Assembly (NCBI RefSeq): GCF_026210795.1
Contig: NC_089435.1
Coordinates: 1,488,001 to 1,552,000, forward strand
Reading direction: 5' to 3'
DNA from: Rhizophagus irregularis
Lineage: Eukaryota
DNA: 64,000 bases
Under the pieces are notes generated by a model. That model was given only the letters and a program-made list of their open reading frames with translations. It made no database searches and was not told where the DNA came from. The position numbers were made by a program, and so were the translations under genes. This document shows, piece by piece, positions 11,127 through 52,377 of this stretch. How positions within the stretch are numbered: the first letter of the stretch is position 1; every line of letters starts with the position of its first letter.

Positions 11127-12590
11127 ATGTCGAGTTTTAACAGAGATGTACTTGTGCTTATACTTGAAGAATTAAAAAGTGATAAAAATTCACTTTTTTC
11201 ATGCCTTTTAGTTAACAGAACTTGGTGTTTAATAGCAGTGAGAATATTATGGAGAAATCCTTGGCAATATTTTACAACCATTAATTCTAAGATTATCATG
11301 TTATTTAATGTATTATTTTTACATTTATCAAAAGAATCAAGAGATATTTTGAAGGGTCAGGGAATTGATAATCATATTACAGAATCACATGAATGCCCCT
11401 TATTTGATTATATTAATTTTATAAAATATTTAGACTTCTTTTTTATAAGATGTATGATACCACGAAAGACTAAAAAAACAAAAATATCTATTGTAAAATC
11501 TGAGATATTTAAATTATTTATTAATAATAATACAAAATTTATTCATCTTTCTATTCCACAAAATTTTTATAATCAAATACATCTTATTCCAGGAGCTGAA
11601 CATTGCTTTTCAGAACTTGAATCCTTTCATTGTAATATGGATATATCTCAAAATATTTTAGAGTGGTTGGTTAGATGCAAATCAATTAAAAAAGTAATAA
11701 TTGAGAATATGTTCTTCAATTATAGTGTTAAATGTTTAGAAATCATTAAATTAATTGAAGCACAAGAAAGCCTAAATGACGTTAAATTCATCAATTTATC
11801 AGAAAGTTATGAATCATTTGATAAGTCTCTTGAAAAATCTTTAATTAAGCATGCAACTACTATCCAATATTTGAGGTTTGACTGGACACCTATTACAAAA
11901 TTTCTTTTACATTTTGTAAATTTGTCATGTTTAGAAATTTTTCTACCTGGGTATAGCGTATGGAAGGATTTAAATTATTTTGAAAATATCTCATTGCCTA
12001 ATTTAAAGATTTTAAGAACAAGCAGAGTTCGACCTATAATTTTGACAAATTTAATTGAAAATATAAAAGGAAATCTTACTGAAATTAGTGTACTTTATGA
12101 TTATCATGGTGATGATAGTAAAATGTTTATTCAAGCAATTTATCGAAAGTGTCCAAATCTAAGATATCTTAGACTATCATTGCTATTGTTTCGTAATATT
12201 GAGTTATTAATCTCAGAATATGAAAGTTTATTAAGTAATAGTCGATATTTAAATGGATTAATTATTGACATATATACTGGATATAATACTGAATTTAAAT
12301 GGAATGAATTTTTTATGATATTAGCTAAATCATCACCAATTAGTTTGTTTAAATTTAAATTTTCTTCTAATAAATTAATTCAATTAAAGGATATAAAATT
12401 ATTTTTTGATAATTGGGAAAATAGGAATTCTATAATTCTAGAAATAAGTAACAAAGATTATAATGTTAATATTAAAGCGAAGCAACAATTAGAAGATCTA
12501 ATCAAAAAATATAAAGTAAAAGGAATAGTTGATAGATATTCCATTGGTTTTAACACAGTATATCATGAAAATGAGTTTGAATGGAATTAA
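11127..12590 (+). CDS. F-box/LRR(RNI)-like protein, 487 aa, intronless
   Basis: The start is most likely the ATG at 11127 (MSSFNRDVLVLILEELKSDKNSLFSCLLVNRTWC), which follows an A-tract as in the paralogues. The ORF-track start at 11088 is a GTG. Confidence 0.85.
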   Translation: MSSFNRDVLVLILEELKSDKNSLFSCLLVNRTWCLIAVRILWRNPWQYFTTINSKIIMLFNVLFLHLSKESRDILKGQGIDNHITESHECPLFDYINFIKYLDFFFIRCMIPRKTKKTKISIVKSEIFKLFINNNTKFIHLSIPQNFYNQIHLIPGAEHCFSELESFHCNMDISQNILEWLVRCKSIKKVIIENMFFNYSVKCLEIIKLIEAQESLNDVKFINLSESYESFDKSLEKSLIKHATTIQYLRFDWTPITKFLLHFVNLSCLEIFLPGYSVWKDLNYFENISLPNLKILRTSRVRPIILTNLIENIKGNLTEISVLYDYHGDDSKMFIQAIYRKCPNLRYLRLSLLLFRNIELLISEYESLLSNSRYLNGLIIDIYTGYNTEFKWNEFFMILAKSSPISLFKFKFSSNKLIQLKDIKLFFDNWENRNSIILEISNKDYNVNIKAKQQLEDLIKKYKVKGIVDRYSIGFNTVYHENEFEWN

Positions 12591-13181: not shown

Positions 13182-14594
13182 TTAAATCCATTTAAAATTT
13201 TCATAATCATCACCACAATCGATAATACTAAAAATATAATTTTCAATTATTCCTTTTGCTTTATATTGTTCAATTAAACTTACTAACTGCTGATCTACTT
13301 TAAAACTAGGATAAATTATTTTTAGTAACATAGCCCTCCTATTTTTCCAATTATCAAAAAATAATTTTAAATCTTTCAGTTTAAATTCCTTAGAATAAAA
13401 TTTAAATTTAAATAAACTAATTGGTGATGATTTAGCTAATATTTGGAATAACTTATTCCACCTAAAGTTATAATCATTTCTCACGTGAATAATTAATCCA
13501 ATTAAAAATTGACAATTAATCAATAAATTTTTAAATTCTGGAATCAATAACTTTATATCAAATGATAATTTAAGATACCTAATATTTGGACAATTTTGAT
13601 AAATTGCCTGAATAAGCATTTTACAACCAACATCACGTAAGGCCTTATCACAATGTATACTAATTTCAGAAAGATTTCCTGTTGTGCTTTCAATTAAATT
13701 TACTGTAGCAATCAATGGAACACGATTAATCTTTAAAATTTTTAAAATAGGTAATAAGATATTCTTTAAATTATTTGGATTATACTTCTTTATGAAAAAT
13801 GATTTCTCGATTTCTAAATATACTAAGTTCACAAAGTACGAAAGAAATCTTGTATTAGGACTCCAATCAATTTTCAAATATTGGATAGTATCTGCATGTT
13901 TAATTAATGATTCTTCAAGATATTTGTAAAATGGTTCAAGTCTGTTAAAAGCATCGGTTAAATAGAATTCATTTAAATTTTTTTGTACTTCAATTAATTT
14001 AAAGATCCCATGACTATCAGTATTTTCATAGCTATCAAAATTTATTTCAATTTTTTTAATTGATTTGCATATTTTAGCTAATCCTACTAGAACGTTTGGA
14101 TCAATTTTACTATTATAATAAAAGATTTCAAGTCCTGATAAGCAACATTCAGCCCCTGGAATAAGATGTACTTGATAATCAAAATATTCTGTAATTGTAA
14201 GTTGAATAAACTTTGTATTTTTATTAATAAACAATTTGAATAACTCGTTTCTTAAAATAGGTGCATTTGATTCTCCAACTATATTCGAAAAAATTTCATG
14301 TCTTAGGATAGGCAATTTTAAATGTAATTAAATAAAGGACGCCGATGTGTTGTCTCTGTTATAAAATTATTCATTCCTTGATTCTTCAAAATTTCTTTTG
14401 ATTCTTCCGATAAAAGTAAAAGTATTACGTTGAATAGTTTCTTTTGAATACCAAAATAAGAAAATAGACTAGGATTTCTCCATAAAATTGATACACCAAG
14501 TTCTATTAACCAAAAGACATGAATAAAGAGATTTTTTATCATTTCCTAATTCTTCAAATATTAGAAAAAGCAAATCTTCATTGGATCGCCAAAT
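13182..14594 (-). pseudogene. F-box/LRR-like pseudogene, inverted paralogue of 39790..41232
   Basis: Start codon changed to ATT (ATT TGG CGA TCC AAT GAA GAT TTG vs ATG TGG CGA TTC AAT GAA GAT TTG). Frameshifting deletions near 14490 and 14318. The 3' 377 codons are still open. Confidence 0.8.
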
Positions 14595-29939: not shown

Positions 29940-30430
29940 AGAAGATGAGAAGTGATAGGAAACAAAAAGGAGAAATAGGACATGATGGGAGATAAAAAGG
30001 AGTGATAGGAAACGAAAAGAAGTGATGGGAGACGAAGAGGAGTGATGGGAGATGAAAGGAGTGATGAGAGACGAAAAGAAGTGATGGGAGACAAAAAGAA
30101 GTGATGATAGACAAAAAGTAATGATGGGAGACGAAAAGGAGTGATGAGAGACGAAAAGAAGTGATTGGAGACGAAAAGGAGTGATGGGAGACGTAAAGGA
30201 GTGATGAGAGACGAAAAGAAGTGGTGGGAGACGAAAAGGAGTGATGAGAGACGAAAAGGAGTAATGGGAGACGAAAAGGAGTGATGGGAGACGAAAGAAG
30301 TGATGAGGAGTGATGGGAGACGAAAGGAAGTGATGAGAGACAAAAAGAAATGATGGGAAGTAAACAGGAGAGAAAAAGAAATAATGTAAAATGAAAAGAT
30401 GTAATAGAAATAATGGGAGACGAATAATGA
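29940..30430 (+). repeat. Purine-rich minisatellite, ~20-21-bp unit (GGGAGACGAAAAGGAGTGAT)
   Basis: About 20 tandem degenerate copies. It explains the three overlapping low-complexity minus-strand ORFs. Confidence 0.9.
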
Positions 30431-31076: not shown

Positions 31077-31521
31077 AATAAATTGTAGTTATTACGTAGA
31101 TGTTTACTTTGTACTGTATAATCATTACTCTGTAAATATTATAATAACCACTTTAGATGTAGTAATTATTGACTGTATATAAAAGATTGTTTTTGCCAAA
31201 CGGTTTTAACGGAAAAATCAAAAAGGTGATATTCAAAACTACCTTTCCACCCAAATAAACCTGCAAAGTAGCATTTACGCATTATCTTTTAGAAGTTTAT
31301 ATATTATGTATTAAGAAATTTTTCTGTTTTCGCAAAGACACAAATAATGAGGCTTGACAATTGACAATTGTCAACACATTCCGGACGTACAAAATTTATT
31401 TGTCATACATGCAATGCTTGTACTTGTGATTATCACCGTATATATATATCCAAACATTTAATAATAATATTTACATTATTTTTTTTTTATTTTTTCCAGA
31501 TTTTAATGCAATTATATAGTA

Positions 31522-34500
31522 ATGGCTCACAGTAATGATAAAGGTAAAAATCAATGTAAATATTTAATATATTTAATACAAATTCTAAAATTTTTAAACA
31601 AATTTGCAATATAATAAAACTAGTTTCCAGTAATACTGAAGAATTTGAAAGAAATAGTACTAAAGAATTAGAAGGAAGTAGTATCAAGGAATTTAAAGAA
31701 AGTAGCACTAACGAATTCGAAGGTAAATATAATATATTATATTTATTTGTTTAATATTTTATAACTCAACTAATTATATTTTTAATATAAATAACTAGAT
31801 TGTAAGTGATACATTTAATTTACAGAGAATACTTTTGTATTATGTCTATATTTAACTAATTAATATTTAATAATACTACAGGGTGTAAGTTATATGTTAT
31901 TTACATTTCTACTATTTATATAATTTAAACTAACTAAATTCTTTATTTAAAAAATTATTTGTAATTTCTTTTAGTTAGTAAGTTATAAGTTACTTATTTA
32001 ATTCTATTATTTGCTTATTGTTATAATATTTACATATAATTAAACTAACTAAATTTTTTATTTAAAAATTATTAAATAATATAGCTTGTAAGTTATTTAT
32101 TTAATTCTATTATTATAATATTTATATGTAATTTAAACTAGCTAAATTCTTTATTTATTGTAATTTCTTTTAGATGGTAAGTTATAAGTTATTTATTTAA
32201 TTCTATTATTACCTATTGTTATAATGTTTACATATAATTTAAACTAACTAATTTCTTTATTTAAAAAATTATTTTATAGATAGTAAGTTATTTATTTAAT
32301 TCTATTATTACTTATTGTTATAATATTTACATGTAATTTAAATTAACTAAATTCTTTATTTATAGATCGTAAGTTATAAGTTATTTAGTTATTTATTATT
32401 ACTTATTGTTACATATAATTTAAACTAAATAATTTCTTTATTAAATATTATTAAATTATAGAGAGTAAGTTATTTATTTAATTTTATATTACTTATTGTT
32501 ATAACATTTACATTTAATTTAAACTAACTAAATTCTTTATTAAAAAATTAATTAAATCATATAGGGAGTAAGTTATTTATTTAATTTCATCATATAATAT
32601 TTACATATAATTTAAACTAACTAAATTCTTTATTTAAAAAAATTATTTAAATAATATAGAGTGTAAGTTATTTATTAATTCTATTATTATTACTTATATT
32701 TACATACTGTATAATTTAAACTAACTAAATTCTGTTTTTAAAAAATTATTTAAATAATATAGTGTGTAAGTTATTTATTTAATTCTATTATTACTACTTA
32801 TTGTTATAATATTTACATACCATATAATTTAAATTAACTAAATTTTTTATTTAAACAATTATTTTGTAATTTCTTTTAGTTAGTAAGTTATAAGTTATTT
32901 GTTTAATTCTATTATTACTTATTGTTATAAAATTTACATATAATTAAACTAACTAAATTCTTTATTTAAAATTATTTTGTAATTTCTTTTAGTTAGTAAG
33001 TTATAAGTTATTTATTTAATTCTATTATTACTTATTGTTATAATATTTACATATAATTTAAACTAACTAAATTCTTTATTTAAAAAATTATTTTATAGGT
33101 GGTAAGTTATTTATTTAATTCTATTATTACTTATTGTTACTATAATATTTACATATAGTAATTTAAACTAAATTCTTTATTTAAAAAATTATTTTATAGG
33201 TGGTAAGTTATTTATTTAATTATATTATTACTTATTGTTATAATATTTACATATAATTTAAACTAACTAAATTCTTTATTAAAAAATCAATTAAATAATA
33301 TAGGGAGTAAGTTTTTTATTTAATTTCATCATTACTTATTGTTATAATATTTATATATAATTTAATCATTACTTATTGTTATAATATTTATATATAATTT
33401 AAACTAACTAAATTCTTTATTTAAAAAATTATTTAAATAATATAGAGTGTAAGTTATTTATTAATTCTATTATACTTATTGTTATAATATTTACATATAA
33501 TTTCAACTAACTAAATTCTGTATTTAAAAAATTATTTAAATAATATAGTTGGTAAGTTATTTATTTAATTCTATTATTACTTATTGTTATAATATTTACA
33601 TACCATATAATTTAAATTAACTAAATTTTTTATTTAAACAATTATTTTGTAATTTCTTTTAGTTAGTAAGATATAAGTTATTTATTTAATTCTATTATTA
33701 CTTATTGTTATAATATTTACATATAATTTAAACTAACTAAATTTTTTATTTACAAAATTATTTTATAGATAGTAAGTTATTTATTTAATTCTATTATTAC
33801 TTATTGTTATAATATTTACATATAATTTAAATTAACTAAATTCTTTATTTACAAAATTATTTTATAGATGGTAAGTTGTTTATATAATTCTATTATTACT
33901 TATTGTTATAATATTTACATACAATTTAAATTAACCAAATTTTTTATTTAAAAAATTATTTTATAGATGGTAAGTTATTTATTTAATTCTATTATTACTT
34001 ATAATTTAAATTAATAAATTCTTTATTTATAGATCGTAAGTTATAAGTTATTTAGTTATTTATTATTACTTTATTGTTATAATATTTACATATAATTTAA
34101 ATTAACTAAATTCTTTATTTAAAAAATTATTTAAATAATATAGGGAGTAAGTTATTTATTTAATTCTATTATTACTTATTGTTATAATATTTACATACCA
34201 TATAATTTAAATTAACTAAATTCTGTATTTAAAAAATTATTTAAATAATATAGGATGTAAGTTATTTATTTAATTCTATTATTACTTATTGTTATAATAT
34301 TTATATATAATTTAAACTAACTAAATTCTTTATTTAAAAAATTATTTAAATAATATAGGGAGTAAGTTATTTATTTAATTCTATTATTACTTATTGTTAT
34401 AATATTTACATATCATATAATTTAAATTAACTAAATTCTTTATTTAAAAAATTATTTAAATAATATAGAGAGTAAGTTATTTATTTAATTCCATCATTAC

Positions 34501-36665
34501 TTATTGTTATAAAATTTACATATAATTTAAACTAACTAAATTCTTTATTTAAATTATTTTGTAATTTCTTTTAGTTGGTAAGTTATAAGTTATTTAATTC
34601 TATTATTACTTATTGTTATAATATTTACATATAATTTGAACTAAATAAATTCTGTATTTAGCATGTAAGTTATTTATTTAATTCTATTATTATATACATA
34701 TAATTTAAACTAATCTAAATTCTTTATTTAATAGATCGTTAGTTACAAGTTATTTACTTAATTCTATTATTACTTATTGTTATATAATTTAAACTAACTA
34801 AATTCTTTATTTGAAAAATTATTTAATAATATAGCTTGTAAGTTATTTGTTATTTCTATTGTATATGTTTATAATATTTATTTGTTAGCTGTATTCTTGA
34901 TTTAAAAATTTCTATTATTTTAGTTGGTAAGTTGAGAAATATAGCTTATTATTATATATATTTATGCAAAAACTAAGACATATATTATCTTAACTTTCTT
35001 ATTTAAATTTTAGAGTAAGTGTTAATTTTAATCATAAATTTTAGTGTAAATTTTATTATAAACTACGATATAATTTTAAGGAATATGTTTTTTTTTGCAC
35101 CTGCGATATGTCACATCTCCCTTTTTTGGTAATTTCTATGTATTAATTATGTCTGATATTTTAATCACATGACTTTGTTAAGATTTTACATTTTTCAAAA
35201 ATCTTGGCTTGAGGCCTTATGCACTTATTACGTACTATAAGAAACCTTATACTATGCGTATTTTTGACCGCTCTACAAGTTTTCTTAATATATCAAAAAG
35301 GATTTAGAATGTCATTTTTGACTTTTATATGTAACATATTATAGGGGTGCGACATAACGCAGGTTAAAAAACAAAACCCTAATTTTAATTATTTAAATTT
35401 ATAGATTTGGAAAAAGTGGAAATACAATTATAGATGAATTTATTCTTGAAAAAAAGTTAAAATGGATTCCTTATAATAAGTTTAAAAATGTTGAATATCT
35501 TAATGAAGGAGGATTTAGTACTATATACAAAGCTATTTGGTTAAAGGATCATGAAGATAAAGAAGTAATTCTTAAATGTCATAATGATTTAAATGGAAAT
35601 TTAATTGAATTTTTAAACGAAGTATGATGATATATTATTTATTTTTTTTAATTTAATTTATAATTTATTAATGTTAATACATTATTATTTTTTATAGTGG
35701 AAATATCATAATAGTTGTTTAGATTCAAACTATATTATTGATTTGTTTGGATTTACAAAGAATCCAGTTACTTTGAAATATATTGTAGTAATGGATTACG
35801 CAAACAAAGGTGATTTAAGAGGAAACTTAACAAGAATAATTGAAAGTGGTTGGAAACAAAAATTAAATATGTTGTATAGTATTATTTCTGGACTTAACAC
35901 TGTACATAAACAAAATCTTATTCATTGTGATTTTCATGATGGCAATATTTTAAATCATGATGAGAGTAAAATTTATGTTAGTGATTTAGGATTATGTCGA
36001 CCTGTAAAATCATTTTTGAAAAAATATGATATTTATGGTGTTGTACCATTTATGGCACCTGAAGTTTCAAGAGGCAAAGCTTATACACCAGCTAGTGATA
36101 TATACAGTTTTTCTATGATTATGTGGGAATTTTCATCTGGAATATCCCCATTTAATAATAGAGCACATGATATTCAACTTAGTTTAAGTATTTGTAGAGG
36201 TGAACGTCCTGAAGTTATTGAAAATACTCCACAATTCTATGTAGATTTGATGAAAAAATGTTGGGATGAAGATTCATTAAAAAGGCCATCTTCTGAGGAA
36301 GTTTTAAACATTATTGGTGGATGGATTTTTCTTCCTTGTATTGAGAAAATTAAAGATATTAATGAAGAATTAAAATGCAATGTTATGGAATTTATAAATG
36401 CACCAATTAGACATAACAATCCTGCTACTGAACCTCACTCACAGGCTTGCTATACAAGTCGCTTACTTGATTTTACTAGTAAAAAATTGAATGAAATTCT
36501 TGAAAGCGAGGATTCACAAGATTTGAATGATTGTATAATCAATGATTTGAAGTCATTAGGTAGTATGTAATATAGAACATAAAAAAAATTAATTTTGCAA
36601 ATTATTTACATGAAATCAATTTTTATTTGTTTAATTATTTAGATATTAAAACGGATGAAAGTTAA
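31522..36665 (+). CDS. TKL-type protein kinase with a microexon-encoded N-terminal region (predicted 38 coding exons)
   Basis: Model: 31522-31543 (MAHSNDK), 31624-31722, 32 x 3-nt exons between 31799 and 34926, a 1-nt exon at 35014, then 35405-35621, 35698-36559 and 36643-36665. All introns are GT-AG and the frame is open throughout. Kinase motifs: EGGFSTIYKA, VILK, HCDFHDGN, SDLG, APE, SDIYSF. The kinase exons are secure; the microexon part is predicted from splice signals. Confidence 0.8.
31723..35014 (+). repeat. Tandem array of ~63-139-nt introns, each followed by a microexon
   Basis: Unit: GTAAGTTATTTATTTAATTCTATTATTACTTATTGTTATAATATTTACATATAATTTAAACTAACTAAATTCTTTATTTAAAAAATTATT..TAG-NNN. 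It contains the donor GTAAGT, the branch point ACTAAC and the acceptor TAG. Confidence 0.92.
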
Positions 36666-37270
36666 CTAATTATTTGTGTTTTTAAAAAGATTTATAGTAT
36701 TTTTTGTGTTATTACATTCAACAGAAATCGTTTTTAGTTTAGATTTATTTAAACACTAAGGCTAGAGTAGTAAAATAATTTACAAGATTCTTAGTTTGTA
36801 ATTTAAATAATTCATTTTTTAAGTATATTTTATCTAAATTTACACATATGTATTCTTTATTATTAGAATTATTTAAACATTAAGGCAGAGCAGTAAATAT
36901 TTTACAAATTTCTTAGTTTGTAATTTAAATAAATCTTTTTTTTATAACTTTTCTAATTATTAAATATAAATCATCAAAACAACATAAGTATATAAACTAT
37001 TTATAATATGTAAAATATAAAAATAAATATGTAAAATTTTTTATATTTATTTCAAGAGCTGATGATATTAATTTTAAAGTAATTGAAATTTCATTAGTAA
37101 ATATATAAATAACAGCATTATATGGGTTAACTTTTATAAATGTAAATCTAAAAAATATTGAATTTAATAGTAGCGACTAAAACGACTAATTGCATGCAAT
37201 TTGTATACATGATTCAATTTTTTTTTGATATTCGAAATATAAAGTTATGCAAAATATTCCGTGTATTGCA

Positions 37271-37535: not shown

Positions 37536-39789
37536 GACTATTGCATAATTAAATTATAACAAAATAATTCATTTATTTTTATATACCAATTAATTACAGA
37601 CCCCGGCGAAAAGAAAAAAATTCTTATGTTTCCATTATTTCTCCGTGGCTTTCATAAAAATTCCGCGGAATGATACATTAAAAAATTCCATGATTTAAAT
37701 CTATAAACTCCATAAAAATGATACTTAAACAAACGTAAAATTCTTTCTTTTTTCATCTTAATAAAAATTTCTAAATTTCTCATCCTACGTATATTGTATA
37801 AGAACTTTCATTTATTCTTTCTCAGGCTAAATAATATATTTTTTTTGTACTATTCGCTTTTTTTTTCCTAAACTAAAATAACTAACTGTAATATCTTTTT
37901 TATGATTTTATAAATATATTGTACAAGTTATTTTCGTATAAATAATTATGAAGAGGTTACAAATTATTTACGTAATTTGCGAATAAGGATCAAACGCGGA
38001 AAGTTCTTTACGCGTGAGATATTTATTTCGCACCAGAAAATATTACGTAGGTATCTCATGTGAGAGAGCTCCATTGTATCATGTTTTGATCATAATAAAA
38101 TTTTAAAAATTCTAATTTTTTTCCATAAAGACGTCACTGATTTAGTCGATCTTATCATATGATACCAAAATTTGTTTACAAAATTTTTTTTAATATATAA
38201 ATAAGATACGAATTTGTAAGGAGGGTGGGTGGTCGCTACTTTATAATCGAATCGATTAGGCTCTATAACCATATTTTTTTCCGGAAAAGGCTCATATTTC
38301 TGGAATTAATAACCTTACGGAACTTATCGAATAATTTACATTTTTCATGAATGGATCCGTTAAAGGCTCATTTTTACGGAGTTTCTACAGAAATAATAAT
38401 TTTACGACTATTTTTTTCCCAAATTTGTCTAACCAGAAAAAAAGTATACCTGGCAAGTGTTTTGATAATCACAGGAATTATACCTTTTTTATTAAAAATA
38501 CTTTATCATTTTACAACGCACAAACCATTCATAATGGGAAAAAAATAGTAGCTATTTACGATAATTAATGCGGCGAGTGACGCCATCAAATATCAAATCT
38601 ACATCTGACGCATGACAAACGTAAACTATTTTCTATAAAATAAACAAATTATTTATTAAATCAAGTACTGTAACTGAAAATTTTTTAAGATATAACTTTT
38701 CCAAGAAACTATTATCACTTGTAAAATTTAGTTATAATGTCATTATACTATTCATTTTAATGTCTGTGTCTGAAATATACCATCAACTTGTTTTTGCTTT
38801 CGTAGAAAATATAAGCTACTCTATAATTTTAGTTCTTCATTTAGAGGAAAGTATCTGAAGATTAAATATAACAAAAGAAAATAATTATAGAACTTTGCTT
38901 ATAAGAATTTAAAAGTTTAAATGTTATCTTTAATGATTGAGCATTACTGTGTGTATCATCTTTGGCTCATTTAATGTTTTTAGTATTGAACGCCATTTGT
39001 CTTGGGCGTCATTTTGCGTGTGATTTGAATATGATTAGGATTGGGATATGAGTGGGATGAGATATGGACTTTTTCATTCCATTTAATATGAGTGCAAGTA
39101 TAATGATTCCGATAGATCAACTCTGCAGATCAATGGATATTGGAAATCTTTCCTTTCATCTGTTTGTTAGTAAATGTATTCATGTGGAAGAAAATTATTT
39201 GCAAAATCCTTTCACATTTATTAAACAAAGTAAAAGAGATAGATATTAATACGTTACGATCTTTTCTACACTTAATTCTAGGGATGATAAGTTTAATGTA
39301 CAGTAGGTAAAGGTCGTAATCCTCGCCGGAGTACCTTAAGTTTGAAACTGTACGGCGTTAATAATAAATCAACATCGAATTTAATCATTGTCAATTTTAC
39401 TATGAAAATTATTACTTATATTTTATATGTTTCATAAGTTCGTGAATTGCTAATTAAATAATGCCATTTCCTATATATTATTTATATCAATGCTTGAAAA
39501 TAATTTTATTTGCCATAAGCTTTAACTTCCTATTAAATTGCCACGTATTCGTCATACAAAAAAAAAATAGTATTTGGTTACTAAATCATGCAGAGACAGA
39601 TCTTCATGCATCAAATTGCAACACAAAGTAAAAAAATAAAATATAAACGTAATATTTGTTACACAATAAGGCTAATCTTCATTAAAATAATGACAAATCC
39701 TTCTAAAACCTAAATTAAATAAAAAATTTCTCCTTTTTTTTATTTTTTATTTTTTATTTATTTATTTATTTATTTTTTAAAAAAAAAGA

Positions 39790-41232
39790 ATGTGGCGATT
39801 CAATGAAGATTTGCTTTTTCTAATATTTGAAAAATTAAAAAATGATAAAAAATCACTTTATTCATGTCTTTTAGTTAATAGAACTTGGTGTGTAACAGCG
39901 GTGCCATTTTTATGGAGAAATCCTAGTCAATTTTATTATGCGACTGATAATTCAAAGAATATACTATATAACGTAATACTTTTACATTTATCGGAAGAAT
40001 CAAGAGTAATTTTGAAGAATCAAGGAATGAATAATCTTATTACGGAGACAACATATCAGCGTCCTTTATTTGATTATATTAGTTTTTGGAAATATTTAGA
40101 ATTGTATATCCTAGAAGATGTAATTTCTTCGAAAATGATTGAAAAATCAAATGCACCTATTTTAAGAAACGAGATATTAAAATTATTTATTAATAAAAAT
40201 ACTAAGTTTATTCAACTTTCAATCCCACGTTACTTTGATTATCAGCTACATCTTATTCCGGAGGCTAAATGTTGCTTTTCAGAACTTGGATTCTTTCATT
40301 GTGATGTTAAAATTGATCAAAATATTTTAGAAGGATTGGCTAAAATATGCAAATCAATTAAAAAAATTACATTATATATTACGGCTTATGATAATACTGA
40401 TAATTATGGGATCTTTAAATTAATTGAAGTACAAAAAAGTTTAAATGAATTCTGTTTATTCGATATTTCAAGCTCTAAACATGAATCATTTTATAAATCT
40501 CTTGAAGAATCATTAATTAAACATGCAGATACTGTCCAATATTTGAGAATTAGTTGGAATCCTACTACAAGATTTCTTTCGTACTTTGTGAATTTACTAT
40601 ATTTAGAAATTCATAAACCATATTTCAGAAATTGGAATGATCCAAATAATTTAAAGAATTTGTCATTACCTAATTTAAAAATTTTAAAGGTTGATTATGT
40701 TCCATTAATTGCTACAGTAAATTTAATTGAAAATACAACAGGAAATCTTTCTGAAATTAGTATACATTGTGATAATGTCATACATTATGTTGATTGTAAA
40801 ATACTTATTCAAGCAATTTATCAAAATTGTCCAAATATTAGGTATCTTAAATTATCATTAGATAGAAATTTATTGATTCCAGAATTTGAAAATTTATTAA
40901 TTAGTTGTCAATTTTTAAATGGATTAATTATTAACGTGTGCAAAGATTATGAATTTAGTTGGGATAAGTTATTTCAAATATTAGCCAAATCTTCACCAAT
41001 TAGTTTATTTAAATTTAAATTTTATTTTAAGATATTTAAATTGAAAGATATTGAATCATTTTTTTCTAGTTGGACAAATAGGAATCCTATATTGTTAAAA
41101 ATAAATCATTCCGGAATAAAAGTGGATCAGAAATTGGTAAATTTAATCGAAGAATATAAAGCGAAAGGAGTGATTAAAAAATATTCATTTGGTTGTGGAA
41201 TGAATCTTAATGAAGATTTTGAATGGATTTAA
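39790..41232 (+). CDS. F-box/LRR(RNI)-like protein, 480 aa, intronless
   Basis: FNEDLLFLIFEKLKNDKKSLYSCLLVNRTWCVTAVPFLWRNP F-box-like motif plus Leu-rich repeats. Intact. Confidence 0.88.
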   Translation: MWRFNEDLLFLIFEKLKNDKKSLYSCLLVNRTWCVTAVPFLWRNPSQFYYATDNSKNILYNVILLHLSEESRVILKNQGMNNLITETTYQRPLFDYISFWKYLELYILEDVISSKMIEKSNAPILRNEILKLFINKNTKFIQLSIPRYFDYQLHLIPEAKCCFSELGFFHCDVKIDQNILEGLAKICKSIKKITLYITAYDNTDNYGIFKLIEVQKSLNEFCLFDISSSKHESFYKSLEESLIKHADTVQYLRISWNPTTRFLSYFVNLLYLEIHKPYFRNWNDPNNLKNLSLPNLKILKVDYVPLIATVNLIENTTGNLSEISIHCDNVIHYVDCKILIQAIYQNCPNIRYLKLSLDRNLLIPEFENLLISCQFLNGLIINVCKDYEFSWDKLFQILAKSSPISLFKFKFYFKIFKLKDIESFFSSWTNRNPILLKINHSGIKVDQKLVNLIEEYKAKGVIKKYSFGCGMNLNEDFEWI

Positions 41233-42687: not shown

Positions 42688-44957
42688 TAGTGTTCCGAAA
42701 GGGTCGGGTCAAACCCGGGTCATTTGACCCGACTCGTGTTTAAAATCCGAATCGGGTTCATCATTATTTGACACTAGTCCTGTATTCAACCCGACTCGTC
42801 GGGTCAGGGTCATGCCTTTGTTTGACCCAGGTTGACCCGGTTTGACCCGGGTTTAATAAGATATTTAAGATATTTTAGAGTAATATGTCCACGTTATGAG
42901 TCTTGTGTATAAAACGAGAAAACATGGTAGATTCTCCCTATGAAAAAAGTCTGTGTGATTTTTGTTGAAAAATCATTCAATTAAATTCACTACAATTTCT
43001 GTATATTTGACCATACAATAATTGTGCTAAAAATTGCAATAAATCACACAATTATTGCATGGTAATTTATTCAATAATTATCCTATTTTTGACCTGAATT
43101 TATACAATTATTGTGTGATTTTTGAGCCAAATTTTAGGCCATATTTTAGGAATTATAGGTTAAATTTTACAGTAATAACAGGCAATTTATAAAGTGAAAT
43201 TATGAATTTTTTTTATTGACGTAAAATATAAAAAATATACACAATATTTCATAAATAAAATACTAAATTTGATATAATCATAAATATAAAAATTTGTAAG
43301 AAAATAAAATAAAATAAAGTATGTTAATAACATGAAAGTAAATTAGTAGTATCAAAGAAGAAAGTAAATTATTAGTGTAAGTAAATTATTAGTATTAAAT
43401 AAAAAAGTATGAAGTTAGTGAAGAAAGCAAATTAGTAGTGTTAAAAAGTAAATTATTAGTGTTAGTAATAAAAAAGTATGAAGTTAGTGAAGAAAGCAAA
43501 TTAGTAGTGTTAAAAAGTAAATTATTAGTATTAGTAATAAAAAAAAGTATGAAGTTAGTGAAGAAAGCAAGTTAGTAACATTAAAATGTAAAAAGTTAGG
43601 AAAATAAAAAGATAAAGAACACAAGTTTTTTTTACCTGATATTTTAAAAGAAAGTTGAAGAAAAGTTAAAAGGTTAAAAAAACAAACAAAAACATTACGC
43701 GTCATCATATTTATTTTGACGATCAGATCACGTGACTAACATATATAATTTTAAGAGTTGATTTTTACCGCATAATTCTGGCCAAATTATAATTCCGGTC
43801 AGAACTAATTGTGTAACCTAATAAAAAGTTTTTGACTTTTTTTTAGTTACAAGATAATACAAAAATTTCACCAATGGGTCTAGAAGATGCCCGTTTATAA
43901 GCAAATATGCGGTTGAATTTTGTGTAACCTTACTGCATAAATCACTTTACTTAGGAAAATCTATTTGTAATGGTTAAAAGTGGTCTATTCGACCCTAAAA
44001 GTGGTCAAATGTAACCATACAGGTAAGATGGAAAGTAGTATAATAGGATTACCCAAAAATTGCTTTCTGTATCCTAAATTTAAGTCTATTTTCAAGTTGT
44101 ACAATAATCACAATTTTTATTGTACAAAAATTGAATGTTTTCTGTATCCTAAATTTAAGTTGTATAAAAATCACACAAAAATTGAACATTTTCTATATCC
44201 TAAATTTAAGTTGTACAAAAATTGCATACTTTTAATATGCTTTGAAAAACTTCATAACTATTTTTATCCAAAAATCTGCAATAATTGTACAATTTCCACA
44301 CGGACTTGAACAAATATTGTACAAAAATTGGATGATTTTTTTTCATAGGGTCTTAGATCATGTTTTTGATTATATTTAAAAATCCTTGAAACCAAGATGC
44401 TCTACTGTGTAAGAAATTATATTATTTAATCTTACTAATTTATTAATAACACATATAGCTAAATGATTCATAACTAGCAGCAGTGGCAGGTAAAAAATAA
44501 TTTAGCTATTTTTAATATTGCTAAATATTAACTAATTAAATGATTTTGCCAATAGAAGGGATCTTTTCCGATGGAGCTGATTTGATAACAGCAGTAACAG
44601 CAGCAAAAAGAAGCAATCTCAAAACAAATACAATTTGTACTTGTATGAGTTTGAAATCATGGTGGGAGTAAGGAAGAATTATGTATTTTATAATTTTATA
44701 ATAAAAATTTAAATAAAACTTATCAAAATCGTTTTTTTGTAAAAGTTGTGCGACATACATTATTATTGTCTTGCAATCATGAACAAATTTGTTAAAAATT
44801 TTATTTGACCCGGGTCATCCGGGGGTTAAACTATAACGGGTCAGAGGTCGGGTTATATAAATATTAACCCGGGTATTTGTGCGGGTTGATTTTTATAGTC
44901 GGGTCGAGTTCGAATATATCCTCAAACCCGACCCGATTCGACCCTTTCAGAACACCA
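42688..44957. mobile_element. Non-autonomous hAT-like element containing a nested insertion
   Basis: TIR TAGTGTTCCGAAAGGGTCG / CGACCCTTTCAGAACACCA. 8-bp TSD ATTTCAAG at 42680-42687 and 44958-44965. Many GACCCG subterminal motifs. Confidence 0.88.
42936..44350. mobile_element. Nested non-autonomous CACTA/CMC-like element
   Basis: TIR CCCTATGAAAAAA / TTTTTTCATAGGG, 3-bp TSD TCT, subterminal TGTACAA/CACAATT repeats, internal tandem repeat at ~43340-43575. Confidence 0.75.
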
Positions 44958-46948: not shown

Positions 46949-47310
46949 AATATCGGAATATCACGTCAATCGCATTTAAACATTTTACATACACTTCAAT
47001 AAGATAACGTGATTAAAATAGGATGTGGCGTTCGCGTTGTTTATATTTATCTCTGCGACTTTTTTTTGAGTGGTCTGATTCTTATTCGTCACCCCTGTAA
47101 GTGTACAAATTGTTTGAATGCACGCCAATCAGTTCCCATCTGCGGATGAGCGGATGATCAGATTGATCAGTGTCAATTACGTTGTGAATATCATGTGATC
47201 GCAGATCCTTTGTGTTTCCTGTGTGACGTTGATTTTTCGGAAAACCCCTTCTATTACACCGACTTGTTGATTTAACCTATCTTAGTTAAAAATAATTTCT
47301 TTATTAAAAA

Positions 47311-50300
47311 ATGTCTGATTTTGAAAACAATGAAAATAAATTATTTTACCAGTATAAAATAGCAGCAGAAATTGGTGATAAAGTTGCAATGTTTAATTTA
47401 GCAATATGTTATGAAAATGGAGAAGGAATAAAAAAGAATTTAGAAAAAGCCTTTTATTGGTATCAGAAAGCAGCTAAAAATGGTAATGAATATGCAATGA
47501 ATAATTTAGCCATATGTTATGAAAATGGAGAAGGAATAGAAAAGAATTTAGAAAAAGCCTTTTATTGGTATCAAAAAGCAGAAGAAAATGGTAATAAAGA
47601 TGCAATATCTAATTTAGCCTTATGTTATGGAGAAGGAATTGGTATTGAAAAGGATGAAGTCAAAGCCTTTTATTGGTATCAAAAAGCAGCAGAGAATGGT
47701 AATGAATATGCAATGAATTATTTAGCTATATATTATGAAAATGGAAAAGGAAAAGAAAAGAATTTAGAAAAAGCCTTTTATTGGTATCAAAAAGCAGCAG
47801 AAAATGGTAATGAAGATGCAATGAACAATTTGGCCATATGTTATAAAAATGGAAAAGGAACAGAAAAGAATTTTAAAAAAGCTTTTTATTGGTATCAAAA
47901 ATCAGCAGAAAATGGGAAAAATGAAGCAATGAATAATTTAGCAATATTCTATGAAAATGGAGAAGGAACAGAAAAAAAATTAGAAAAAGCCTTTTATTGG
48001 TATCAAAAAGCAGCAGAAAATGATAATAAAGTTGCAATGTATAATTTAGCCTTATGTCATAAAAATGGAAAAGGAACAGAAAAGAATTTAGAAAAAGCTT
48101 TTTATTGGTATCAAAAAGCAGCAGAAATAGATTATATTAAAGCAATGAATAGTTTAGCTATATGCTATGGAAATGGGGAGGGAACAGAAAAGAATTCAGA
48201 AAAAGCCTTTTATTGGTATAATAAAGCAGCAGAAAATGGTAATGAAGCTGCAATGAATAATTTAGCCTTTTGTTATAAAATTGGAAAAGGAATAGAAATG
48301 GATTTAGAAAAAGCCTTCTATTGGTATCAAAAAGCAGCAGAAATAGATTATATTAAAGCAATGTTTAATTTGGCCGTATGTTATGAAAGTGGGAAAGGAA
48401 TAGAAAAGAATTTTAAAAAAGCTTTTCATTGGTATCAAAAAGCAGCAGAAAATGGAAAAAATGAAGCAATGAATAATTTAGCAATATGCTATGAAAATGG
48501 AGAAGGAACAGAAAAAAATTTAGAAAAAGCCTTTTATTGGTATCAAAAAGCAGAAGAAAATGGTAATAAAGATGCAATATCTAATTTAGCCTTATGTTAT
48601 GGAGAAGGAATTGGTATTGAAAAGGATGAAGTCAAAGCCTTTTATTGGTATCAAAAAGCAGCAGAGAATGGTAATGAATATGCAATGAATTATTTAGCTA
48701 TATATTATGAAAATGGAAAAGGAAAAGAAAAGAATTTAGAAAAAGCCTTTTATTGGTATCAAAAAGCAGCAGAAAATGGTAATGAAGATGCAATGAACAA
48801 TTTGGCCATATGTTATAAAAATGGAAAAGGAACAGAAAAGAATTTTAAAAAAGCTTTTTATTGGTATCAAAAATCAGCAGAAAATGGGAAAAATGAAGCA
48901 ATGAATAATTTAGCAATATTCTATGAAAATGGAGAAGGAACAGAAAAAAAATTAGAAAAAGCCTTTTATTGGTATCAAAAAGCAGCAGAAAATTATAATA
49001 AAGTTGCAATGTATAATTTAGCCTTATGTTATAAAAATGGAAAAGGAACAGAAAAGAATTTAGAAAAAGCTTTTTATTGGTATCAAAAAGCAGCAGAAAT
49101 AGATTATATTAAAGCAATGAATAGTTTAGCTATATGCTATGGAAATGGGGAGGGAACAGAAAAGAATTCAGAAAAGGCCTTTTATTGGTATAATAAAGCA
49201 GCAGAAAATGGTAATGAAGCTGCAATGAATAATTTAGCCTTTTGTTATAAAATTGGAAAAGGAATAGAAATGGATTTAGAAAAAGCCTTCTATTGGTATC
49301 AAAAAGCAGCAGAAATAGATTATATTAAAGCAATGTTTAATTTGGCCGTATGTTATGAAAGTGGGAAAGGAATAGAAAAGAATTTTAAAAAAGCTTTTCA
49401 TTGGTATCAAAAAGCAGCAGAAAATGGAAAAAATGAAGCAATGAATAATTTAGCAATATGCTATGAAAATGGAGAAGGAACAGAAAAAAATTTAGAAAAA
49501 GCCTTTTATTGGTATCAAAAAGCAGCAGAAAATGGTAATAAAGTTGCAATGTATAATTTAGCCTTATGTTATGAGGAAGGAATTGGTACTGAAAAAAATG
49601 AAGTTGAGGCCCTTTATTGGTATCAAAAAGCAGCAGAAAATGGTAATGAAGTTGCAATGAACAATTTAGCCATATGTTATAAAAATGGAAAAGGAACAGA
49701 AAAGAATTTAAAAAAAGCCTTTTGTTGGTATCAAAAAGCAGCAGAAAATGGTAGTAAAGTTGCAATGAAAAGTTTAGCCATATGTTATGAATATGGAAAA
49801 GGTACAGAAAAGAATTTAGAGAAAGCCATTTACTGGTATCAAGAAGTAGAAAATGGTAATGAAATTGCAATGAATAGTTTAGCAATATGCTATAAAAATG
49901 GAGAAGAAACAAAAAGGAAATTAGAAAAAGCCTTTTATTGGTATCAAAAAGCAGCAGAAAATGGTAATATAGATGCAATGTCTAAATTGGCCTTGTGTTT
50001 TGGAGAAGGAATTGGTATTGAAAAAGATGAAGCCAAAGCATTTTATTGGTATCAAAAAGCAGCAGAAAATGGTAATGAAGTTGCAATGAATAATTTAGCC
50101 ATATATTATAAAAATGGAGAAGGAACAAAAAAAAGTTTAGGAAAATCCTTTTATTGGTATCAAAAAGCAGCAGTAAATGGTAATGAAATTGCAATGAATA
50201 GTTTAGCCATATGCTATAAAAATGGAGAAGGAACAAAAAGGAAATTAAAAAAAGCCTTTTATTGGTATCAAAAAGCAGCAGAAAATGGTAATATAGATGC

Positions 50301-52377
50301 AATGTTTAGTTTGGCTTTATTTTTTGGAGAAGGAATTGGTATTGAAAAAGATGAAGCCAAAGCATTTTATTGGTATCAAAAAGCAGCAGAAAATGGTAAT
50401 GAAGTTGCAATGAATAGTTTAGCAACATGCTATGAAAATGGAAAAGGAACAGAAAAAAAATTAGAAAAAGCCTTTTATTGGTATCAGAAAGCAGCAGAAA
50501 ATGGTAGTAAAGTTGCAATGAAAAGTTTAGCCATATGTTATGAATATGGAAAAGGTACAGAAAAGAATTTAGAGAATGCCTTTTGTTGGTATCAAAAAGC
50601 AGTAAAAAATGGTAATGATGATGCAATGAAAAATTTAGCCATGTGTTATGAAAATGGAAATGGAACAGAAAAGAATTTAGAAAAAGCCTCTTATTGGTAT
50701 CAAAAAGCAGCTCAGCAAGGGATTAGTAATGTTCAGTATAAACCTGGATTTCTTTATAGAATTGGTAAAGTGAAAAAAGTATTAGAAAAGCATGTTTATT
50801 GGTCTAAAAATGCAGAAAAAGAAAGTTTAAGTGCAAATAAATGGATTGAAAATGCTCTAAAATATGGAAAAGTTAAATTTATATCTTATAAAGAGCTAAA
50901 AAATACAGAAAGACTTTATGCGGGAGGATTTGGAACAATATCAAAAGCAATTTGGACTAAAACTAATAATTATGTTATTTGTAAAAAATTGACTAATACA
51001 ACTTATATTAAGAATGATCTATTAGATGCATTTATTCATGAACTAAAAGTGCATCTGCACCTTAATTATAGTGACAGAATTATACGTTGTTTTGGTATTA
51101 GTTTAGGTAATTTGATTATTTATCTACATTGCATTTTTATTTTTTATTTTTTTTTAAAAATTTCTTATAAATTTTTTCTTTAGATCCAAAAACAAATGAA
51201 TATTTTCTTATTATGCAGTACGCTAATGACGGAGATCTTCAAAATTATCTCAAAAATACTTTTAAGGATTTGACATGGGATGATAAGAAAAAATTAGCAT
51301 TTCAAATTGCAGATGGATTAAATTATTTGCATAATGAAAATATTTTACATAGAGATCTTGTAAGTATTATTATTTTTATCTAATATCATTATAGTACTAA
51401 ATAAATGATAATGTTCTACTTTATTTTTTTTATTTTAGCATTCTAAGAATATAGTTATTCATGAAAATAATGCTAAAATTATGGACTTTGGTATTTCAAA
51501 AAATCAAGATAATCAAACTTCAACAGCCTATGTTGGTAATTTTGGTGTTGTTGCTTATATGGAACCAAGACGTTTTGTAGATCCAAATTTTCTATATATT
51601 AATGCTTCAGACGTCTATAGCTTTGGTGTATTAATGTGGGAGATTTCTAGTGGATATCCTCCATTTAAAGATAATGATAATAAAGTTGCACTTGCTGTTT
51701 CTATTAGTAATGGTGCTCGTGAGGTTACAATTCTAGGTACCCCTAAAGAATATGAAAATCTTTATAAAAATTGTTGGAACCAAGAACCTGAAGAAAGATC
51801 AACTATTAATGAAATATTGGATGAATTTGAAAGAATGGGTTTTGGAAATATTGCTACTAACGAAGGTATTTATTTATTATTCACATCCGTATATTTGTTG
51901 TAGGCCAAACTTGACCATGCCTTGCCATCGGCTTAAATTATCGGCCAATCTAATAATGTCTCAAGACTGTACCAGATAATGGTGTAATTAGCCGAAAAAC
52001 GGAGCCGAATACCTGATTCCGGACCGGTTTAATTGCAGAAAATCCCTGGAACTCCACGACGATCTAGACCTGAACGGGTCCGGATCACGTTGCGGCTAAT
52101 TATTTTTCGGCTAACTACACCATTATCTAATTTAGGTCGATGGTAAGGTTTGGGACATGGTCTACAACATATATTTACTAATATATTGATGAAAATAAAA
52201 TAAATCTGTTTATTAAAGGTAGTGACAATTTAACTCCAGAATTACAAGTTAGTGATAATTCTGCTCAATTCTCTTCAAATTTACACAGTAAGTTTATAAC
52301 TCTGCTTATTAAGATTTGATATTGAACTAATATTTTTAAATATTTTGTTAAATTTAGTTGACCTGGACAATGTATAA
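47311..52377 (+). CDS. Sel1-like repeat (about 31 x 36 aa) protein with C-terminal TKL-type kinase domain
   Basis: Repeats of AMNNLAICYENGEGTEKNLEKAFYWYQKAAENGN. Exons 47311-51106, 51184-51359, 51439-51865, 52219-52287, 52358-52377 (GT-AG, in frame). Motifs GGFG, VICK, HRDLHSKN, DFG, YMEP, SDVYSFG. Confidence 0.9.
51896..52169. mobile_element. Foldback MITE inside intron 3 of the Sel1-kinase gene
   Basis: Nested inverted repeats: TGTTGTAGGCC/GGTCTACAACA, CCTTGCCATCGGCTTAAATTA/TAATTTAGGTCGATGGTAAGG, AGATAATGGTGTAATTAGCCGAAAAA/TTTTTCGGCTAACTACACCATTATCT. Confidence 0.85.

What the first reader, a model, noticed from the sequence alone, without database searches (positions are those of the whole stretch)
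31522..36665. Kinase gene whose N-terminal segment is spelled by 32 consecutive 3-nt microexons hidden in an apparent satellite
Seen in sequence: every ~100-bp repeat unit reads branch point (ACTAAC-like) ... YAG|NNN|GTAAG (one GTTAGT), with exactly 3 nt between acceptor and donor. Exons by start: ATT 31799, GGT 31882, TTA 31975, CTT 32085, ATG 32174, ATA 32280, ATC 32366, AGA 32462, GGA 32565, AGT 32660, TGT 32763, TTA 32880, TTA 32993, GTG 33099, GTG 33200, GGA 33304, AGT 33446, TTG 33549, TTA 33663, ATA 33769, ATG 33868, ATG 33967, ATC 34033, GGA 34144, GAT 34254, GGA 34359, AGA 34469, TTG 34575, CAT 34662, ATC 34735, CTT 34835, TTG 34924. They lie between two conventional exons (31522-31543, 31624-31722) and the kinase exons. 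Full inclusion gives ...STNEFE-DWFTYDNQRKLFISGGKFVNNDDRRWKIAYPFE-FGKSGNTIIDEFI... with no stop. Established: micro-exon genes exist (e.g. Schistosoma MEGs), but I know of no array of single-codon-length exons feeding a kinase. Inference: this is a system for generating a variable N-terminal specificity peptide, by alternative splicing and/or by gain and loss of repeat units. ORF finders and repeat maskers would miss it.
Basis: partly seen in the sequence, partly recalled or inferred. Interest (0 to 1): 0.97.

Follow-up and report, generated by a model that had tools for sequence, protein, structure and literature searches.

The report
Kinases spelled in three-base exons
In a root-symbiotic fungus, a stretch that looks like junk satellite DNA holds 32 three-base pieces between splice signals, and related kinase genes show the same layout; the pieces are likely spliced in order into a fast-changing front end of the protein that would let the fungus alter a recognition peptide one amino acid at a time.

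Summary
Confirmed and extended. The window is from Rhizophagus irregularis (kinase exon 100% identical to a DAOM 197198 protein). All 32 triplets sit between YAG and GT(A/T)AG. A 1-nt exon at 35014 completes an open 439-aa kinase frame. The layout is family-wide: 33 of 80 related kinase loci from metagenomes carry triplet units upstream, up to 29 per contig. Strongest evidence of use: stop codons formed across neighbouring triplets, about 100 bases apart in DNA, are avoided (1 of 173 pairs, 10.7 expected), but not between next-but-one triplets (8 of 144, 8.7 expected). So selection acts on in-order, full inclusion, and alternative skipping gets no support. PolyA reads from paralogs end and begin with the predicted triplets at both edges. 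Repeat units duplicate around the exon, and triplets differ about five times more than flanking intron. The array stands where other relatives have a CxxC zinc-finger-like motif. Not shown: a read across this gene's own array, expression of this copy, or any function. No report was found in ten literature searches. Closest systems are schistosome micro-exon genes and brown-algal LRR exon shuffling.

The parts
31522..31543 (+). Coding part of exon 1 (ATG to phase-1 donor); an acceptor at 31499 points to a 5'-UTR intron further up
   Evidence: Sequence. Depth of paralog RNA reads falls from 10-22 per direction to under 1 at 31544.
31624..31722 (+). Exon 2, 99 nt, acidic Glu/Ser-rich linker with a 24-nt internal repeat, phase 1 at both ends
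   Evidence: Similar segments in public proteins P0021, P0037, P0117. Paralog reads show an exon1-exon2 join; no read covers its 3' end.
31723..34926 (+). Array of 32 introns and 32 three-base exons (starts 31799, 31882, 31975, 32085, 32174, 32280, 32366, 32462, 32565, 32660, 32763, 32880, 32993, 33099, 33200, 33304, 33446, 33549, 33663, 33769, 33868, 33967, 34033, 34144, 34254, 34359, 34469, 34575, 34662, 34735, 34835, 34924); every codon is split over two exons (phase 1)
   Evidence: pattern; selection on the spliced order in the family; paralog mRNA edges.
35014..35014 (+). One-base exon (A) that supplies the middle base of a Glu codon and restores the kinase frame
   Evidence: Needed for frame. 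A 1-nt unit lies before the offset-1 acceptor in L001-L004, L006, L007. Paralog RNA ends in this A.
35015..35404 (+). Last intron before the kinase, 390 nt against 72-96 nt in six relatives; carries an insertion of about 320 nt (about 35061-35380) and a second AG-T-GT site at 35045
   Evidence: contigs of run X1 skip 35061-35379; one search shows the 31-nt duplication that made the 35045 site.
35405..35621 (+). Kinase exon A: juxta-kinase segment, Gly-rich loop, catalytic Lys, helix C
35698..36559 (+). Kinase exon B: TKL-type catalytic core with HCD (non-RD) loop, DLG, APE
   Evidence: PF07714 E=1.2e-31; 100% to P0001, GBC45418.2; motifs.
36643..36665 (+). Last coding exon with stop
   Evidence: Gives the same C-terminus as P0001.

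Best explanation
The array is 32 three-base pieces between ordinary spliceosomal introns, plus one single base, that are likely all spliced in order to write a 33-residue segment in front of a TKL-type kinase, and this segment likely acts as a fast-evolving recognition or partner-binding peptide. How it works: (1) Each roughly 100-nt AT-rich intron has its own donor, branch-like site and acceptor (shown), and is inferred to be removed one after another, so each triplet becomes the end of the growing upstream exon before the next donor is used. (2) Each unit adds exactly three bases, so gain or loss of a unit never shifts the frame (shown by arithmetic; 191 of 199 array units in relatives are 3 nt). 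(3) The near-identical introns are inferred to drive unequal crossing-over or slippage with breakpoints inside introns, which copies, deletes or swaps single codon-sized exons. (4) The triplets change several times faster than their flanks, most at positions that alter the amino acid (shown; diversifying selection is inferred). Variety therefore arises mainly between gene copies and strains at DNA level, not by alternative splicing. (5) The segment stands where other family members have a CxxC..WCxxC motif, and it is rich in W, Y, F and charged residues. A sensing role in self/non-self or parasite recognition is the most likely function but is untested. Odds: real in-order exons about 0.9; DNA-level diversifier under selection about 0.65; immune-like sensing about 0.35.
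For: Pattern far above chance. Family-wide: of 80 metagenome loci, 33 have triplet units directly upstream of the kinase exon and 2 more have only the 1-nt unit. Unit lengths in arrays: 191 of 3 nt, 5 of 1 nt, 3 of 2 nt, none other. Frame agrees: loci whose next acceptor leaves 2 nt have no terminal 1-nt exon (27); the window and six loci whose acceptor leaves 1 nt have one. L021 and L011 give open frames from ATG through exons 1-2 and the triplets into the kinase. Cross-junction stops in the kinase frame: 1 of 173 neighbour pairs against 10.7 expected (P<1e-4, 26 loci), 8 of 144 at distance two against 8.7, and no deficit in the other phase (31 of 173 against 27.2). After a T-ending triplet the next starts AA/AG/GA in 1 of 45 cases, after others in 37 of 125 (Fisher P=3e-5; unique pairs 2e-4; window left out 1.6e-3). 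RNA: 14, 22 and 36 polyA reads in three runs run off the acceptor at 35405; their consensus ends in the predicted last ten letters (ATC, CTT, TTG, A), matching neither exon 2 nor the intron. 26, 27 and 32 reads run off the exon-1 donor with a consensus starting ATTGG, the first five letters of the triplet chain. Flanks on both sides of one exon co-vary (Mantel r=0.48, P=0.0005); the two ends of one intron do not (r=-0.07). Triplets differ at 46 of 96 bases in 32 close pairs against a mean of 0.089 for held-out intron windows; relatives 27 of 69 against 0.129. W+Y+F are 42 of 191 junction codons.
Against: No read spans this gene's own array. Reads are from paralogs or another strain (mostly 90-99% alike); depth on 35686-35874 is under 0.4 in about a quarter of each of three RNA runs (two samples, one study), so expression of this copy is not shown. 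Loose-end consensuses are mixtures (agreement 0.67-0.82), and the 5' ones follow exon 1, not exon 2. Some polyA reads are unspliced: 4 and 2 reads lie on the first array intron, and depth up to 7 lies on intron 1. Some arrays are broken: L038 has an in-frame junction stop, L045 reads into a stop unless a degenerate unit is counted, L022, L060 and L061 have a frame-shifting 1- or 2-nt unit mid-array, and L007, L022, L042, L063 have stops in kinase exons. Pair counts for the fast-triplet result are not independent, and the outermost held-out windows reach 0.37 (window) and 0.30 (loci). Non-RD loops also mark most zinc-finger-type relatives (13 of 15 readable), so non-RD is not special to the array clade; only HCD is (29 of 31 against 0 of 15). 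No function was tested.
Confidence: 0.75

Rival explanations
1. The triplets are spliced in, but the peptide is only a tolerant linker: the array is a self-expanding intron repeat, kept in frame and stop-free by purifying selection, with triplets drifting faster only because the introns are homogenised and constrained by splicing.
For: Explains the stop avoidance and the 3-nt length equally well. Peptides share no conserved motif between loci. G/C-richer triplets in 12%-GC DNA may mutate faster (inference). Broken arrays are common.
Against: Triplet positions 1 and 3, which change the amino acid, differ twice as often as position 2, the third codon base (28/13/26 in 47 pairs); drift predicts the reverse or equality. 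Units with identical 62-nt flanks differ at all three exon bases (units 18 and 25). The segment takes the place of a conserved CxxC motif.
Confidence: 0.3
2. The array is a combinatorial alternative-splicing cassette, as the first reader proposed and as in schistosome micro-exon genes: each transcript uses a different subset of triplets.
For: Every skip keeps the frame; 30 of 32 single skips and 528 of 561 possible joins in the window are stop-free. Loose-end consensuses are heterogeneous. Paralog reads join exon 1 straight to triplets, which may be exon-2 skipping.
Against: Stop avoidance is confined to direct neighbours; distances 2-5 are at chance (8/144, 6/121, 4/103, 5/88 against 8.7, 7.0, 6.1, 5.1). 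Heterogeneous reads are expected from many paralogs alone.
Confidence: 0.12
3. The array is a non-coding satellite in one long intron or upstream of the true start, as public gene models have it; at most one unit is used (for example through the GT four bases into a donor) to join exon 2 to the kinase.
For: Public models of this gene start in or after the last intron (P0001, P0167, P0168). None of the 86 stored models with the FGxS motif checked, or the 29, shows the phase-1 segment. A few unspliced reads exist.
Against: Cannot explain stop avoidance between bases 100 nt apart, fixed 3-nt spacing with invariant AG and GT around a variable core, the 1-nt exon tracking acceptor phase, or the RNA edges.
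Confidence: 0.05
4. The repeats are recursive-splicing ratchet points or introner-type mobile introns rather than duplicated exons.
For: Near-identical introns with acceptor and donor almost abutting resemble both (recalled from memory).
Against: No 0-nt unit among 199 array units, so bases are left in the mRNA at each step. The duplicated unit is centred on the exon, not the intron. No other such run in the window, and all arrays found lie at one site of one gene family, though loci were found through the kinase, so copies elsewhere were not searched for.
Confidence: 0.03

Closest known systems
Schistosoma micro-exon genes (MEGs) (10.1101/2023.06.21.545858, part 1 of 3 read; PMC4350168, passages)
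   Same: Runs of very short, mostly symmetric exons that annotation misses; multi-copy families; accelerated evolution.
   Different: MEG exons are 3-81 bp, mostly 15 bp, 10-20 per gene, with introns of 0.1-5 kb, and encode secreted proteins. Here exons are uniformly 3 nt, up to 32 in a row, introns are about 100-nt tandem repeats of each other, the product is a kinase with no signal peptide seen, and skipping is not under detectable selection.
Exon shuffling of LRR exons in brown-algal ROCO genes (PMC11378527, passages)
   Same: Tandem same-phase exons in front of a signalling domain, turned over by duplication, under diversifying selection, proposed as immune receptors.
   Different: There each exon is a 72-bp structural repeat. 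Here the exon is one codon's worth, the protein segment has no repeat, and the repeated part is the intron.
Isolated fungal exons of 1-3 nt: Coprinopsis cinerea (PMC12230235, passages: 27 three-base exons in 26 genes) and Fusarium CYP621A (PMC12940212, abstract)
   Same: Fungal spliceosomes can include 1- to 3-nt exons; the 1-nt exon at 35014 is of this kind.
   Different: Known cases are about one per gene and supply conserved residues; here dozens in a row build a hypervariable segment.
Expanded TKL-type kinases of arbuscular mycorrhizal fungi (2,533 kinases in R. irregularis, PMC10234402, passages)
   Same: The catalytic domain is an ordinary member (PF07714; 707 relatives at E<=1e-60).
   Different: The passages seen do not mention microexons, and public models of this subfamily omit the segment or appear to read it in the wrong frame.

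Membership tests
TKL-type protein kinase (PF07714) of Glomeromycota | Kinase domain above the Pfam cut-off | tested here: met
   110.4 bits against 23.1.
TKL-type protein kinase (PF07714) of Glomeromycota | Catalytic Lys, catalytic-loop Asp and Asn, DFG-like and APE motifs in an open frame | tested here: met
   VILK, HCDFHDGN, DLG, APE in the 439-aa model. Activity not tested.
Non-RD kinases linked to immune sensing | Uncharged residue (C or G) in place of Arg before the catalytic Asp | tested here: met
   HCD here, in 111 of 120 closest proteins and in 29 of 31 readable array loci; definition from PMC3411088 passages.
Non-RD kinases linked to immune sensing | Acts in or with a pattern-recognition receptor | not testable with these tools
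   The link is a plant and animal correlation; no fungal data were seen.
Schistosome micro-exon genes (MEGs) | Most of the coding region in symmetric micro-exons | tested here: not met
   97 of 1320 coding bases are in micro-exons; the triplets are symmetric.
Schistosome micro-exon genes (MEGs) | Long introns up to 5 kb, exons mostly 15 bp | tested here: not met
   Introns 63-139 nt, exons 3 nt.
Schistosome micro-exon genes (MEGs) | Secreted product | not tested
   No predictor was run; the N-terminus is acidic and polar by eye.
Schistosome micro-exon genes (MEGs) | Isoform variety by exon skipping | tested here: inconclusive
   No stop avoidance at distances 2-5; single-locus reads were not available.
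Symmetric-exon shuffling arrays (ROCO LRR type) | Tandem exons of one length and one phase, duplicated as exon-centred units | tested here: met
Symmetric-exon shuffling arrays (ROCO LRR type) | Each exon encodes one structural repeat | tested here: not met
   Each exon is 3 nt and splits two codons.
Recursive-splicing ratchet points (recalled definition) | Zero-length exon, AG directly followed by GT | tested here: not met
   0 of 32 in the window, 0 of 199 array units in relatives.
Introner-like mobile introns (recalled definition) | The intron is the copied unit | tested here: not met
   Ends of one intron do not co-vary; flanks of one exon do.
Introner-like mobile introns (recalled definition) | Copies dispersed in unrelated genes | not testable with these tools
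   No genome was held; no second run in the 64-kb window.

The most novel reading that the evidence does not exclude
Arbuscular mycorrhizal fungi own a codon-resolution diversity generator: a large kinase subfamily whose sensing peptide is stored one codon per repeat in a satellite of introns, so that ordinary repeat recombination inserts, deletes and swaps single residues without frameshift, and selection drives a repertoire of self/non-self or anti-parasite receptors that differs between copies, nuclei and strains. It replaced an ancestral zinc-finger-like module and is missed or misread by the public gene models examined.
Probability: 0.35. Interest if true: 0.97.

Novelty: new variant of a known kind. 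Interest (0 to 1): 0.9.

Why it matters
First, it sets an extreme for gene structure: 33 exons of 1-3 nt in a row, coding information at 3% density inside a satellite, every codon split over two exons. That is a natural test case for how a spliceosome handles donors three bases from an acceptor and in what order introns go. Second, it is a route to protein variation at single-codon resolution without frameshifts, in fungi whose thousands of kinases have no assigned role and whose means of generating variation is a standing question (my knowledge). It makes a concrete, testable proposal: compare arrays between strains and nuclei. Third, it is an annotation blind spot: the public models of this gene lack the N-terminus, and ten related models carry Ile/Gly/Met/Leu-rich stretches that look like triplets read in the wrong frame (inference).

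Tried and rejected
No whole genome was held, so no genome-wide count of arrays. The run search listed no indexed RNA holder of this gene (no evidence either way); three raw RNA runs of the same species label were laid instead. Only the two flanks (34930-36800; 31440-31800) were laid, so joints across the array itself were not observed. A pattern for the repeat unit found 0 matches in viral contigs and 0 in prokaryote genomes. Three protein searches and one profile search gave no transcript-derived protein with the phase-1 segment among the N-termini printed (in one search only 29 of 150 hits were inspected). Pfam names no family for the CxxC motif of three array-less relatives (best E=0.003, all under cut-off), so 'zinc-finger-like' rests on the Cys spacing alone. 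A tree of 68 short rows shows the array label clustered (6 changes against 22.6 shuffled) but cannot show one origin or which N-terminus is ancestral. The Atlas search gave only unnamed Mucoromycota kinase clusters. Earlier scan findings: none on this system. Reading the triplets as whole codons (phase 0) was rejected: ATG-anchored and kinase-anchored frames are both phase 1, and RNA shows the 1-nt exon, not a 5-nt one; L060 upstream of its internal 1-nt unit may be an exception. The first flank-versus-triplet ratio (0.019 against 0.53) was biased by pair selection and is replaced by the held-out control. No structure or complex was predicted. Dardick and Ronald 2006 was not held and is cited only through PMC3411088. 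The annotation files and supplements of PMC10234402 were not seen and could contain some of these exons.
Full report
Source and setting. The kinase exon at 35698-36567 is 100% identical to P0001, a Rhizophagus irregularis DAOM 197198 protein (GBC45418.2), and its 120 best relatives are named Rhizophagus proteins or unnamed JGI kinase entries. The window also holds F-box/LRR genes and a 31-copy Sel1 gene, as is usual for this fungus. No whole genome was available.

All 32 triplets lie at the stated places between TAG (31) or CAG (1) and GTAAGT (30), GTAAGA or GTTAGT. In the array the acceptor-donor distance is 3 in 32 cases, 1 in one case and never 0, 2 or 4-12. TAGNNNGTAAGT has 29 matches in the window against 0.22 by chance. 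The AG and GT are invariant while the three bases between them are the most variable positions near the junction (commonest base 0.41, 0.62, 0.38). The frame needs a 1-nt exon at 35014: skipping everything or using only the 96 triplet bases runs into stops, 97 nt opens a 439-aa kinase. A branch-like site is in 18-24 of 32 introns, not all. The absence of stops in this array alone proves little (P=0.19).

It is a family trait. A metagenome scan with the first kinase exon returned 80 loci. 33 have one or more triplet units directly upstream, 2 have only the 1-nt unit, 23 have an in-frame CxxC motif instead, 13 have under 120 nt upstream and 9 fit neither. Two pairs are identical copies (L036/L045, L061/L062) and two more are 95-97% alike. 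L038 has 29 units, L045 28, L060 24, L061 16. Of 199 units inside arrays, 191 are 3 nt, 5 are 1 nt, 3 are 2 nt. Phase is constant: in 27 loci the natural acceptor of the kinase exon (picked by eye among nearby AGs) leaves two bases and there is no terminal 1-nt unit; in the window and six loci it leaves one base and a 1-nt unit precedes it. L021 and L011 hold the 5' end, and read open from ATG through a short exon 1, an acidic exon 2 and the triplets into the kinase, all phase 1. These loci were found through the kinase, so arrays at other genes were not looked for.

Selection acts on the spliced order. In phase 1 a stop needs the last base of one triplet and the first two of the next, about 100 bases away. 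Among 173 neighbour pairs in 26 loci there is 1 stop against 10.7 in within-locus permutations (P<1e-4). At distances 2, 3, 4, 5 the counts are 8, 6, 4, 5 against 8.7, 7.0, 6.1, 5.1. In phase 2 there is no deficit (31 against 27.2). Left out before this count: L036 and L062, single-unit loci, triplets upstream of a 1- or 2-nt unit, and pairs across introns over 140 nt; with the upstream triplets and both copies kept and the window out, the count was 2 of 160 against 10.3. As a 2x2 table with L039 also dropped: 1 of 45 against 37 of 125 (P=3e-5); unique triplet pairs P=2e-4; without the window P=1.6e-3. A skipped satellite cannot give this. It also says that neighbours are joined to neighbours: skipping leaves no trace of selection.

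RNA agrees at both edges, from paralogs. In three polyA runs (two samples, one study, about a quarter of each read) 14, 22 and 36 reads match the kinase exon and run off at exactly 35405. Their consensus ends in ATC, CTT, TTG, A, the last ten letters predicted here, and not in exon-2 or intron sequence; the rest parses into triplets of the same vocabulary, two units longer than here before a shared motif. At the 5' side depth drops to near zero at the exon-1 donor, and 26, 27 and 32 reads run on with a consensus starting ATTGG, the start of this array's chain; other reads show an exon1-exon2 join. Limits: reads are mostly 90-99% alike and so from other copies; consensus agreement is 0.67-0.82; no read covers the end of exon 2; the window's own exon B has almost no coverage over 35686-35874; 4 and 2 reads are unspliced in the first array intron.

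How the array evolves. The flanks either side of one exon co-vary (Mantel r=0.48, P=0.0005), the two ends of one intron do not (r=-0.07), so the copied unit is half-intron, triplet, half-intron. In close pairs the triplets differ at 46 of 96 bases, held-out 3-nt intron windows at 0.089 on average (highest 0.37, at the outer edge); in 12 related loci 27 of 69 against 0.129. Triplet bases 1 and 3 (codon positions 2 and 1) differ about twice as often as base 2 (28, 13, 26 in 47 pairs). Pairs share units, so these are descriptive. Long introns in relatives hold either foreign insertions with intact ends or units with a mutated AG or GT; losing a unit in this way removes three bases and keeps the frame. 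Some loci are broken (L038, L045, L022, L060, L061, L007, L042, L063), as expected in a family with birth and death.

What it likely does. Array-less relatives have CxxC..WCxxC directly before the conserved FQQ-x-F-x-x-WTSGN motif; array loci have their acceptor at that point and no such motif in frame. The junction codons are rich in N, D, R, K and in W, Y, F (42 of 191). Array kinases have HCD in 29 of 31 readable loops; the CxxC type has it in 0 of 15, though 13 of those are also non-RD. In plants non-RD kinases with Cys or Gly are tied to microbe sensing (PMC3411088, passages). I therefore read the segment as a variable recognition peptide that took the place of a fixed module. This step is inference; a tolerant linker is the main rival, and the tree cannot say which N-terminus came first. 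Sequential intron removal is also inference: a donor three bases from an acceptor should be usable once the upstream intron is gone.

Relation to what is known. Schistosome MEGs have short symmetric exons but of 3-81 bp, mostly 15, with long introns (bioRxiv 10.1101/2023.06.21.545858, part 1 of 3; PMC4350168, passages). Brown-algal ROCO genes shuffle 72-bp LRR exons under diversifying selection (PMC11378527, passages). Fungi have isolated 1-3 nt exons, about one per gene (PMC12230235, passages; PMC12940212, abstract). The system works like symmetric-exon shuffling but belongs to none of these families. Ten searches of open-access full text (listings only unless stated) showed no report of triplet-exon arrays or of microexons in AM-fungal kinases; the genome paper PMC10234402 (12 of 13 passages) does not mention them in those passages. 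Subscription journals and annotation supplements were not seen. Public models of this gene start after the array. Ten of 131 stored proteins with an N-terminal part score above any kinase-core window for phase-0 triplet vocabulary, which suggests that predictors sometimes call the triplets in the wrong frame; contiguous exons in those paralogs cannot be excluded.

Verdict. Real, family-wide and apparently undescribed. In-order 3-nt exons: about 0.9. Selected DNA-level diversifier: about 0.65. Immune-like sensing: about 0.35. Interest 0.9.

Noticed in passing
window 35045: A second AG-T-GT site 31 nt after the 1-nt exon, from a small duplication, also present in L001 and in paralog contigs of X1. 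It could be an alternative 1-nt exon; the RNA consensus shows only the A.
   Followed up: partly
window about 35061-35380: Insertion of about 320 nt in the last intron; part of it is high-copy in run X1 and paralog contigs lack it. Possibly a small non-autonomous mobile element.
   Followed up: partly
L059 1373 and 1547-1548: A 1-nt and a 2-nt unit either side of one triplet add up to six bases, restoring the frame: possible compensating changes of exon length.
   Followed up: no
L060 1258: A 1-nt unit in mid-array; upstream of it the triplets are stop-free in phase 0 but not in phase 1, so part of this array may be read in another phase.
   Followed up: partly
L038 1470-1735, L045 520-813 and 2244-2684, L011 925-1087, L061 after 1428: Foreign insertions inside array introns that leave the flanking GT and AG intact.
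   Followed up: partly
Public proteins P0056, P0080, P0003, P0103, P0036, P0179, P0092, P0190, P0177, P0224: N-terminal Ile/Gly/Met/Leu/Arg-rich stretches that match triplets read as whole codons; P0103 suggests an array of about 60 units.
   Followed up: partly
Public proteins P0036, P0045: Some paralog models start Met-Gly-Gln-Cys/Tyr, a possible lipidation signal (recalled motif); the window's gene does not.
   Followed up: no
window 47308-51903 (+): Gene with 31 Sel1 repeats followed by an RD-type kinase domain.
   Followed up: no
window 3511-4941, 11070-12590, 13182-14327, 39781-41232, 60088-61569: Five related F-box/LRR-like reading frames (F-box-like hit for 39781-41229).
   Followed up: no
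window 29953-30363 and 43336-43616: Purine-rich tandem repeats of 20 nt and of 21-69 nt; not triplet-exon arrays.
   Followed up: no
L034, L046: CxxC-type kinase modules repeated in tandem within one gene; the profile search also returned many 600-1600 aa proteins with 4-12 such stretches.
   Followed up: no
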